Notes under the pieces: model-generated
What the model saw: only the letters and a program-made list of their open reading frames with translations
Databases searched by the model: none
What the model was told of the DNA's origin: nothing
Program-made: the position numbers and the translations under genes
Shown here: positions 55,084 to 55,829 of the stretch, one piece after another
Layout of the letters: every line of letters begins with the position of its first letter
Numbering within the stretch: the first letter of the stretch is position 1
From: the human T2T-CHM13v2.0 reference genome, Homo sapiens
Reading direction: 5' to 3' (one strand)
Length of the DNA: 64,000 nucleotides
NCBI RefSeq assembly: GCF_009914755.1
Contig: NC_060939.1

Positions 55084-55829
55084 GAGACGGAAGTGAGCCA
55101 CACACTCTGTGTCCTCGCCTCACCAGGAAACTACTAAAGTTCCTGGGGAAGCAAAGTAGAATTTCATAAGAACAAAATGGATGGAGAGGAGAAAACCTAT
55201 GGTGGCTGTGAAGGCCCTGATGCCACGTATGTCAAATTGATATCATCTGATGGCCATGAATTTATTGTAAAAAGAGAACATGCATTAACATCAGGCACGA
55301 TAAAAGCCATGTTGAGTGGCCCAGGCGTTTTATGGGTTTGGCTTTTAAATTTAGGTCTTTGGTCTTAAGTTAATTTTTGTTTATGCTGTGAGGTCAGTTT
55401 GCTGAGAACGAAACCAATGAGGTCAATTTTAGAGAGATACCTTCACATGTGCTATCGAAAGTATGCATGTATTTTACCTACAAGGTTCGCTACACTAACA
55501 GCTCCATCGAGATTCCTGAATTCCCAATTGCACCTGAAATTGTACTAGAACTGCTGATGGCTGCGAACTTCCTAGATTGTTAAATAAAATAAATTATAAT
55601 AAACTGTTAACTCTTTTCAGTATGTAATACCTGTAGATCAGTTAGTAACTTTTTCATATATAGCATGTTGCCTGTATGCAGTTTAACTATATAAAGTTCA
55701 TTGCAAAGCAGATTATCTTGTTTTTTTCATAGCAATCAAAGTTGAAATTTGTTTGCTACATCAACAAATTAAGAACATTTTCACAAACTGAGAAATAAAC
55801 AAATATGCCAATTAAAAAAAAAAAAGAAA
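55084..55829 (+). pseudogene. ELOCP2: Processed pseudogene of Elongin C (ELOC/TCEB1), probably ELOCP2/TCEB1P2
   Basis: Intronless copy with 5'UTR. ATG at 55177 gives [15 protein letters not shown]...AMLSGPG, and 55393-55583 gives [10 protein letters not shown]...AANFLDC*. AATAAA at 55794, poly(A) at 55814-55825, 15-bp TSD GAAACAGAGACAGAG at 55069-55083 and 55830-55844. A 68-nt insert (55325-55392) frameshifts the ORF. The pseudogene number is from recall. Confidence 0.93.

What the first reader, a model, noticed from the sequence alone, without database searches (positions are those of the whole stretch)
55325..55392. ELOC retrocopy carries a 68-nt L1-like insert at the parental exon junction: a likely fossil of a poison-exon isoform
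Seen: the retrocopy has TSDs and a poly(A) tail. Its ORF is interrupted only by 68 nt (GCGTTTTATGGG...TTAATTTTTGTTTATGCTGTGAG) between GGC CCA G and GT CAG TTT, with no duplication typical of a later insertion. The insert shifts frame and gives a TAA at 55366-55368. Recalled: CCAG|GTCAG is the ELOC coding exon-exon junction, and the insert resembles antisense L1 (TTTAGGTC...GAGTTAATTTTTGTATATGGTGTGAG|GT), which ends at a natural donor. Inference: L1 machinery reverse-transcribed an ELOC mRNA that included an exonised L1 cassette from the ELOC intron. The pseudogene would then record an unproductive ELOC isoform present in the germline.
Basis: partly seen in the sequence, partly recalled or inferred. 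Interest (0 to 1): 0.8.

Follow-up and report, generated by a model that had tools for sequence, protein, structure and literature searches.

The report
ELOC pseudogene preserving an L1-derived exon
This dead, reverse-transcribed copy of the human ELOC gene carries an extra 68-base exon that still lies, with working-looking splice signals, inside an intron of the real gene, so it is a neat but ordinary fossil of a minor alternative ELOC transcript.

Summary
ELOCP2 (55085-55813) is a processed pseudogene with exact 15-nt target-site duplications, a poly(A) tail and an untemplated 5' G.

The 68 nt at 55325-55392 sit exactly between ELOC exon 3 (…CCCAG) and the last exon (GTCAG…). They are 66/68 identical to chr8:74381235-74381302 on the ELOC strand. 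That site lies 3,856 nt into the 9,096-nt intron and is flanked there by a pyrimidine tract plus AG, and by GTAAGA.

The stretch is antisense L1 ORF2. Its divergence (2/68) matches the whole copy (16/729), and 0 of 35 other ELOC-derived places carry it. So an ELOC mRNA with an exonised L1 cassette was retroposed.

Two refinements:
- The in-frame TAA lies only 24 nt before the last exon junction, under the 50-55-nt NMD rule. The isoform is unproductive (63-aa product) but probably not a classic NMD "poison exon".
- The last cassette base is G in the retrocopy and in 24/28 L1 relatives but A in today's gene. The parental donor seems to have weakened since.

Retrocopies that archive isoforms, and L1 exonisation, are both in print. 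This is a new example, of modest interest.

The parts
55069..55083 (+). 5' target-site duplication GAAACAGAGACAGAG
   Evidence: Exactly two copies in the window, 0 expected in 100 shuffles.
55084..55084 (+). Single G between the TSD and the first parental base. The chr8 parent has C at the matching place. It may be a cap-derived extra G, which would mark a full-length mRNA copy (inferred).
   Evidence: Window sequence compared with the parental upstream ...cctacctcc|AGACGG.
55085..55125 (+). ELOC 5' UTR exon 1 (41 nt), parent chr8:74401536-74401496. The parent continues with gtacgg.
   Evidence: 2 differences in 41.
55126..55180 (+). ELOC exon 2 (55 nt) ending ...AAAATGG, with the start codon at 55177-55179. 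Parent chr8:74389067-74389013.
   Evidence: 0 differences in 55.
55181..55324 (+). ELOC exon 3 (144 nt), covering codons 2-49 and the first base of codon 50. Parent chr8:74385302-74385159, donor CAG|gtaagc.
   Evidence: 2 differences in 144.
55325..55392 (+). 68-nt cassette exon, antisense to L1 ORF2. Parent chr8:74381302-74381235 inside the 9,096-nt intron. Parental flanks are ...tgttttcccttgtgttttcttatag| and |gtaagagatc.
   Evidence: 2 differences in 68, at 55344 and 55392. L1 identity.
55366..55368 (+). In-frame TAA created by the frameshift, 24 nt before the cassette/last-exon junction. The predicted product is 63 aa (ELOC residues 1-50, with Gly50 kept by the junction codon, plus [13 protein letters not shown]). 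The new tail is the same in parent and retrocopy.
55393..55813 (+). ELOC last exon (421 nt): the rest of the coding sequence out of frame, the canonical stop at 55581-55583, the 3' UTR, and AATAAA at 55794-55799. Parent chr8:74376062-74375641.
   Evidence: 10 differences including one 1-nt gap.
55814..55829 (+). Poly(A) tail remnant (A12 G A3). The parent continues with cgtaggtgg instead.
55830..55844 (+). 3' target-site duplication GAAACAGAGACAGAG

Best explanation
ELOCP2 is an L1-mediated processed pseudogene copied from a complete, spliced and polyadenylated ELOC mRNA. That mRNA had five exons instead of four: exon 1, exon 2, exon 3, a 68-nt cassette and the last exon.

The cassette was spliced out of the 9.1-kb intron between the two main coding exons. 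It is a piece of an old L1 lying antisense to ELOC, and the L1 supplies a pyrimidine tract plus AG acceptor and a GT donor.

Including the cassette shifts the frame and stops translation after 63 codons, so the isoform cannot make functional Elongin C. The stop is only 24 nt upstream of the last exon junction. By the 50-55-nt rule the mRNA would probably escape EJC-dependent NMD and be stable enough to be captured by the L1 machinery in the germline (inferred).

After retroposition the copy drifted neutrally. The parental cassette donor seems to have changed from GAG|GTAAGA to GAA|GTAAGA, which weakens the exon (inferred by parsimony).

Shown here: the structure, the parental origin, the splice-site flanks, the L1 identity, the equal divergence, and the absence from other copies. 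Inferred: germline abundance, NMD escape, and the direction of the donor change.
For: - Retroposition hallmarks: 15-nt TSDs, a poly(A) tail, and an AATAAA 14 nt before the end of the copy.
- Parental origin: all five pieces map collinearly to the minus strand of G000:C8 over 26 kb. Each parental piece is bounded by AG...GT.
- The cassette is 66/68 identical to chr8:74381235-74381302. The 38 other genomic matches listed are 78-85% identical.
- Divergence is even across the copy: cassette 2/68, remainder 14/661. This fits the cassette having been there from the start.
- Splice signals, scored against 52 donors and 52 acceptors of annotated exons in this window:
  - The cassette acceptor is at the 60th percentile.
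  - The donor is at the 31st percentile as it stands, and at the 71st with the retrocopy's G at -1.
  - Only 2 AG...GT pairs spaced 30-300 nt in the 9,096-nt intron are as good on both sides, and one of them is the cassette.
- L1 identity:
  - The chr8 + strand just beside the cassette encodes L1 ORF2p residues 853-908, E 5e-19.
  - In relative L010 the cassette match lies antisense inside a 191-aa open frame that matches ORF2p 851-1034, E 2e-106.
- 0 of 35 other ELOC-derived places with both flanks carry the insert: 34 (a tally) plus L026.
- The parent with the cassette and the retrocopy both read through to the same 13-aa tail and stop.
- The last cassette base is G in 24 of 28 L1 relatives.
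Against: - No transcript data could be consulted, so present-day use of the cassette in ELOC mRNAs is unshown.
- A single retrocopy proves only that one such mRNA molecule existed in a germline cell, not that the isoform was regular or abundant.
- Primate orthologues could not be examined.
- The direction of the change at 55392 rests on parsimony, with 3 of 28 L1 relatives carrying A. The A could also be a variant of this assembly.
- The other cassette difference (55344) cannot be polarised: 13 C and 14 T among relatives.
- Two short peptides translated across the chr8 cassette itself found no L1 match in the PDB. The L1 assignment of the cassette proper rests on DNA similarity to L1 copies and on contiguity with the ORF2 match.
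- The 50-55-nt rule is a rule of thumb, so NMD sensitivity remains open.
Confidence: 0.93

Rival explanations
1. The cassette is a true regulated poison exon. Its inclusion targets ELOC mRNA for nonsense-mediated decay as a means of dosage control, and ELOCP2 records that regulatory isoform.
For: - The exon is 68 nt, not a multiple of 3, and brings an in-frame TAA.
- The acceptor is as good as a median real acceptor, and the inferred ancestral donor is at the 71st percentile.
- Long-3'-UTR or EJC-independent NMD is mentioned in PMC5437961 (passages), so decay is not excluded.
Against: - The stop lies 24 nt upstream of the last exon junction, inside the 50-55-nt zone in which EJC-dependent NMD is not triggered (PMC5437961, passages).
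- The exon comes from a decayed L1, not from an ultraconserved element as classic poison exons do (recalled).
- The donor appears to have weakened in the parent, which is not what selection for a switch predicts.
- A search for 'ELOC' plus 'poison exon' found 0 papers.
Confidence: 0.1
2. The mRNA was a one-off splicing error (noise) that happened to be retroposed. The cassette was never a reproducible ELOC isoform.
For: - 1 of 36 ELOC-derived places carries it.
- Antisense L1s are rich in cryptic splice sites that are normally repressed. PMC6108849 (passages) reports 1,702 LINE-derived exons, of which 1,180 are not identical to an annotated exon.
Against: - Both splice sites are of ordinary strength, and the pair is one of only two of such quality in the intron. 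Repeated use is therefore plausible.
- An mRNA that evades NMD would accumulate.
- This reading differs from the best explanation only in abundance, which no tool here can measure.
Confidence: 0.3
3. The 68 nt entered the pseudogene after retroposition, as a truncated L1 insertion or as a patch copied from chr8 during DNA repair or gene conversion.
For: The stretch is L1-like, and L1 fragments insert everywhere.
Against: - It has no TSD and no poly(A) of its own.
- Its ends coincide to the base with the ELOC exon junction on one side and with AG| and |GT in the chr8 intron on the other.
- It is 97% identical to that one intronic copy and 85% or less to the other L1 copies.
- It is in the sense of the ELOC transcript.
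- Its divergence equals that of the rest of the copy.
Confidence: 0.02

Closest known systems
[quoted passage not shown]
   Same: A retrocopy preserves an exon combination that differs from the reference mRNA and so reveals an alternative splice form of the parent. PMC4772013 (passage) says retrocopies served as archives of 'transcript isoforms' and cites this paper and two others.
   Different: I could not open the 2006 paper, so I do not know whether TCEB1/ELOC is among its cases. Here the archived exon is repeat-derived and frame-breaking, and the copy seems to keep a stronger donor base than today's gene.
Exonisation of antisense L1 fragments in introns (Attig et al. 2018, PMC6108849; mouse L1: PMC2176070)
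   Same: An intronic L1 lying antisense to the host gene supplies both splice sites of a cassette exon. [quoted passage not shown] The chr8 L1 here is old: 75-85% identity to 28 relatives.
   Different: [quoted passage not shown] The evidence for this exon is a genomic fossil, not RNA data. For PMC2176070 I saw only the search listing and abstract.
Poison (NMD-coupled) cassette exons
   Same: A cassette exon whose length is not a multiple of 3 and which brings a premature stop, making the isoform unproductive.
   Different: The stop is 24 nt from the last junction, below the 50-55-nt threshold (PMC5437961). The exon is a decayed repeat. No regulation has been shown.
Ordinary ELOC processed pseudogenes (35 other places in this genome)
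   Same: Same parent and same L1-type retroposition. Four share the same first exon (chr12:21.33 Mb, chr12:117.23 Mb, chr1:88.67 Mb).
   Different: All of them join exon 3 directly to the last exon. ELOCP2 alone has the cassette. It is also the closest to the parent, at 97.8% against 95% or less for the others.

Membership tests
L1-mediated processed pseudogene (retrocopy) | Intron-less copy of the spliced parental mRNA | tested here: met
   Five parental pieces spread over 26 kb of chr8 are contiguous in the window. Every parental piece is bounded by AG/GT.
L1-mediated processed pseudogene (retrocopy) | Poly(A) tail at the parental polyadenylation site | tested here: met
   A12GA3 at 55814-55829 follows ...GCCAATT. 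The parent continues cgtagg. AATAAA lies at 55794-55799.
L1-mediated processed pseudogene (retrocopy) | Target-site duplications flanking the copy | tested here: met
   A 15-nt exact repeat occurs twice in the window, with 0 expected.
Cassette exon of the parental gene | Sequence present in the parental intron, on the gene strand, between the two flanking exons | tested here: met
   chr8:74381235-74381302 (-), 66/68 identical. It lies 3,856 nt downstream of exon 3 and 5,172 nt upstream of the last exon.
Cassette exon of the parental gene | AG acceptor with pyrimidine tract, and GT donor, exactly at the boundaries | tested here: met
   ...tgttttcccttgtgttttcttatAG|GCG... and ...GTGAA|GTAAGA. 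Acceptor at the 60th and donor at the 31st percentile of 52 real sites each.
Cassette exon of the parental gene | Observed in transcripts (ESTs, RNA-seq, annotation) | not testable with these tools
   No human transcript data or chr8 annotation is available here. Literature searches found nothing.
L1-derived (antisense) exon | The exon lies within an L1 element, on the strand opposite to the L1 ORFs | tested here: met
   The chr8 + strand next to the cassette encodes ORF2p 853-908. The cassette has 38 dispersed matches. In L010 the match is antisense to an open ORF2 frame, about residues 953-975. Direct peptide searches over the cassette itself found nothing.
Poison exon (NMD-coupled) | [quoted passage not shown] | tested here: not met
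   The TAA at 55366-55368 is 24 nt before the junction at 55392|55393, and no further junction follows. Rule from PMC5437961.
Poison exon (NMD-coupled) | Isoform stabilised when NMD is blocked; inclusion regulated | not testable with these tools
   Needs RNA-seq after UPF1/SMG1 depletion.

The most novel reading that the evidence does not exclude
The L1-derived cassette was once a well-used, NMD-resistant ELOC exon in the germline of an ape or catarrhine ancestor. It yielded a 63-aa N-terminal Elongin C fragment or lowered Elongin C output. It was later turned down in the human lineage by a G-to-A change at the last exon base. ELOCP2 would then be a dated record of the birth and attenuation of a repeat-derived exon in a core ubiquitin-ligase adaptor gene.
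Probability: 0.12. Interest if true: 0.5.

Novelty: new member of a known kind. Interest (0 to 1): 0.3.

Why it matters
ELOC encodes Elongin C, the adaptor of the VHL and SOCS-box cullin ligases. It is a renal-cancer and VHL-like disease gene (PMC13474409, listing and abstract only). A deep-intronic L1 exon with good splice sites that truncates the protein at residue 50 is a place where intronic variants could raise inclusion and reduce ELOC dosage. In particular, a reversion of the A to G at the last exon base would score as a much stronger donor.

More generally, the case shows that a retrocopy can date an exonisation event and keep an older state of a splice site. As biology it is one more example of two well-described phenomena, so the wider significance is small.

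Tried and rejected
- Later insertion into the pseudogene: rejected. There is no TSD, the boundaries are the exact splice boundaries, and divergence is equal.
- Recursive-splicing intermediate: rejected. The exon 3/cassette junction reads CCAG|GCG and does not rebuild a GT donor.
- Direct protein-level proof that the cassette itself is L1: two short translated peptides across it gave no L1 hit in the PDB sequences. I used the neighbouring ORF2 match and an intact relative instead.
- Polarising the second cassette difference (55344) with L1 relatives: uninformative, 13 C against 14 T.
- Shemesh et al. 2006: not held.
- Searches for print on this insert:
  - 'ELOCP2'/'TCEB1P2' gave 4 papers. I saw only listings and abstracts, which read as expression or association studies.
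  - 'ELOC' + 'poison exon' gave 0.
  - 'TCEB1' + 'exonization' gave 1 paper, about a 3' UTR Alu.
  - 'ELOC' + 'cryptic exon' gave 6 papers. By listing and abstract these are on VHL disease and other topics, and none appears to be about an ELOC exon.
  - The held supplements of PMC6108849 had no TCEB1. Only 3 files were held as text, so its table of LINE-derived exons may not have been covered.

Full report
**Observation**

The sequence at 54900-56000 and the stop-to-stop frames show an Elongin C reading frame. It starts at the ATG at 55177, runs to ...GGC CCA G at 55324, and resumes at 55393 (GT CAG TTT ...) up to the TAA at 55581-55583. Between the two halves lie 68 nt (55325-55392). These shift the frame and bring a TAA at 55366-55368.

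The copy has the marks of retroposition:
- The 15-mer GAAACAGAGACAGAG is found exactly twice in the 64-kb window, at 55069-55083 and 55830-55844. None was expected in 100 shuffles.
- A12GA3 follows the last parental base at 55813, and an AATAAA lies at 55794-55799.
- One G (55084) stands between the 5' duplication and the first parental base, where the parent has C. I read this as a possible cap-derived base, which is an inference.

**Where the pieces come from**

A search of the window's own genome with the 68 nt alone gave the window itself and then G000:C8:74381236-74381302 on the minus strand (99% over 67 nt, E 1.3e-24). The next 38 listed places were only 78-85% identical.

A search with the whole retrocopy, and another with its first 98 nt, placed the other parts on the same strand of chromosome 8. 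After fetching the region and aligning, the exact map is:

| Piece | Window | chr8 (minus strand) | Length | Differences |
|---|---|---|---|---|
| Exon 1 (part) | 55085-55125 | 74401536-74401496 | 41 nt | 2 |
| Exon 2 | 55126-55180 | 74389067-74389013 | 55 nt | 0 |
| Exon 3 | 55181-55324 | 74385302-74385159 | 144 nt | 2 |
| Cassette | 55325-55392 | 74381302-74381235 | 68 nt | 2 |
| Last exon | 55393-55813 | 74376062-74375641 | 421 nt | 10, one a 1-nt gap |

In total there are 16 differences in 729 nt, or 97.8% identity.

In the parent every piece has canonical flanks:
- Exon 1: ...CACCAG|gtacgg
- Exon 2: ttttcag|GAAACT...AAAATGG|gtaagc
- Exon 3: ctttag|ATGGAG...GGCCCAG|gtaagc
- Cassette: ...tgttttcccttgtgttttcttatag|GCGTTTT...GCTGTGAA|gtaagagatc
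- Last exon: ttttgttttacag|GTCAGTTT...GCCAATT, followed by non-A sequence

The cassette sits 3,856 nt into a 9,096-nt intron, on the gene strand, flanked by AG and GT.

**Was the cassette there from the start?**

- Its divergence from the parent (2/68) is the same as that of the rest of the copy (14/661).
- It has no flanking duplication and no tail of its own.
- Its ends are the parental splice boundaries to the base.

A later insertion or a repair patch is therefore very unlikely.

**What the cassette is**

- On the chr8 + strand, opposite to ELOC, the DNA just beside the cassette translates into a peptide that matches human LINE-1 ORF2 protein residues 853-908 (E 5e-19 against 8sxt; 1.5e-19 against 8c8j).
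- Peptides translated across the decayed cassette itself found no L1 match.
- The cassette has dozens of dispersed relatives. In one of them, L010, the match lies antisense inside a 191-aa open frame. That frame matches ORF2p 851-1034 at E 2e-106. This places the cassette opposite roughly codons 953-975.
- The chr8 copy is 75-85% identical to 28 relatives. It is interrupted by Alu-like sequence on both sides. That last point is my reading of the frames and was not tested.

So the cassette is an old L1 fragment antisense to its host gene.

**Splice-site quality**

I built simple position weight matrices from the 52 GT donors and 52 AG acceptors of the annotated ITPKA, LTK, RPAP1 and TYRO3 exons in this window, and ranked sites against leave-one-out scores.

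| Site | Score | Percentile |
|---|---|---|
| Cassette acceptor | 10.6 | 60th |
| ELOC last-exon acceptor | 11.3 | 63rd |
| Cassette donor as in today's gene (GAA\|GTAAGA) | 5.9 | 31st |
| Cassette donor with the retrocopy's G at the last exon base (GAG\|GTAAGA) | 9.0 | 71st |

In the 9,096-nt intron, 5 of 555 AGs score at least as well as the cassette acceptor, and 17 of 542 GTs at least as well as the present donor. Only 2 AG...GT pairs spaced 30-300 nt are as good on both sides, and one of them is the cassette. The matrices are crude, since they rest on 52 sites each, so these ranks are only indicative.

**Direction of the two cassette differences**

- At the last exon base (55392) the retrocopy has G and the parent A. 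Among 28 L1 relatives, 24 have G, 3 have A and 1 has T. Parsimony says the intronic L1 had G, the mRNA that was copied had G, and the parent later changed to A, which weakens the donor. This is inferred. A back-mutation in the retrocopy or an assembly-specific variant is not excluded.
- The other difference (55344: retrocopy T, parent C) is uninformative (13 C, 14 T, 1 A) and is synonymous in the shifted frame.
G at +1 is found in 24/28 relatives but T at +2 in only 13/28. The acceptor G is found in 14/28.

**Other ELOC copies**

I tallied the 86 alignment pieces. At 34 places outside ELOCP2 and the parent, a piece ends at exon 3's end and the adjacent piece starts at the last exon's start. 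The gap between them matches the unaligned exonic query bases to within 2 nt. These comprise 13 autosomal places, 1 on X and 20 on Y; one X place and one Y place look like the same pseudoautosomal locus.

A further place (chr12:117.23 Mb, L026) is shown contiguous. That call also re-confirmed 9 of the 34 directly.

So 0 of 35 carry the cassette. Two places could not be judged:
- chr8:9.26 Mb has no downstream piece.
- At chr4:39.90 Mb the upstream piece ends early.

The Y copies are ampliconic duplicates, so independent retroposition events number well under 35.

**Consequence for the protein and the mRNA**

I translated the parental exons with the cassette, and the retrocopy as it stands. Both give 63 residues: Elongin C residues 1-50 (Gly50 kept by the junction codon) followed by [13 protein letters not shown] and a stop. 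The only difference between the two is M17T in the retrocopy. The isoform is thus unproductive for full-length (112-aa) Elongin C.

The stop lies 24 nt before the cassette/last-exon junction, and no junction follows. The review PMC5437961 (passages read) states that mammalian NMD is triggered when the stop is more than 50-55 nt upstream of an exon junction. It also says that EJC-independent routes exist.

By that rule the isoform should escape the main NMD route, so 'poison exon' in the usual sense is not supported. An NMD-resistant mRNA is also a likelier template for retroposition, which is an inference.

**Age and drift**

I polarised the 13 exonic substitutions outside the cassette with up to 9 other ELOC pseudogenes.
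- 3 are changes of the parent: at 55215, 55547 and 55572 the retrocopy agrees with 9/9, 7/7 and 8/8 other copies. All three are synonymous.
- 8 are changes of the retrocopy.
- 2 are ambiguous.

The retrocopy's coding changes include three amino-acid replacements (M17T, T88I, A100V), so there is no sign of constraint. About 8-10 substitutions plus one 1-nt gap over 661 nt is 1.2-1.5% or slightly more. Set against recalled ape divergences, this suggests an origin in ape or catarrhine ancestors. The estimate is rough and untested here.

**Comparison with what is known**

- PMC4772013 (passage) states that retrocopies have served as archives of transcript isoforms. It cites Shemesh et al. [quoted passage not shown] 2008 and Podlaha and Zhang 2009. 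I could not open the 2006 paper. Its content beyond the title is recalled.
- Exonisation of antisense L1 is documented at scale in PMC6108849 (passages): 1,702 LINE-derived exons, with older L1s the commoner source. [quoted passage not shown] Those files may not include the full exon table.
- Searches for ELOCP2/TCEB1P2, 'ELOC' with 'poison exon', 'TCEB1' with 'exonization', and 'ELOC' with 'cryptic exon' found nothing about this insert.

The case appears undescribed in the searched library, but it belongs to two known kinds.

**Verdict**

There are two amendments: the isoform probably escapes NMD rather than being a poison exon, and the parental donor has probably weakened since retroposition. 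It is a tidy new example rather than a new phenomenon. Interest is 0.3.

Noticed in passing
window ~55449-55476 (site); L014:1857-2187, L018:1131-1418, L026:988-1314: Eight other ELOC pseudogenes have a break at the same spot of the coding sequence, query 365-392. In the three inspected, the break is an Alu inserted after ...GCATGT/ATTTT: sense in L014, antisense in L018 and L026. These are independent hits, which suggests an L1-endonuclease hotspot.
   Followed up: partly
window 55085-55125; loci: Most ELOC pseudogenes align to ELOCP2 only from query ~39-45, which is the exon 1/exon 2 boundary. Only chr12:21.33 Mb, chr12:117.23 Mb and chr1:88.67 Mb share its exon 1. The others presumably came from mRNAs with alternative first exons.
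   Followed up: no
window 55215, 55547, 55572: At three synonymous sites ELOCP2 and all other aligned pseudogenes (9/9, 7/7, 8/8) agree against the present chr8 gene. These are changes in the parental ELOC after ELOCP2 was made.
   Followed up: partly
window 55084: A single untemplated G lies between the 5' TSD and the first parental base, where the parent has C. It may be a reverse-transcribed cap, which would place the transcription start of that mRNA at chr8:74401536.
   Followed up: no
window 54880-55049: A long purine-rich (GAA/GGA)n microsatellite lies about 20 nt upstream of the retrocopy's 5' target-site duplication.
   Followed up: no
G000:C24 (Y) 8.7-26.8 Mb, about 20 places: An ELOC-derived sequence 71-81% identical to the retrocopy is present in about 20 copies, often in inverted pairs, in the Y ampliconic region. 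A further copy lies at the ends of X and Y.
   Followed up: no
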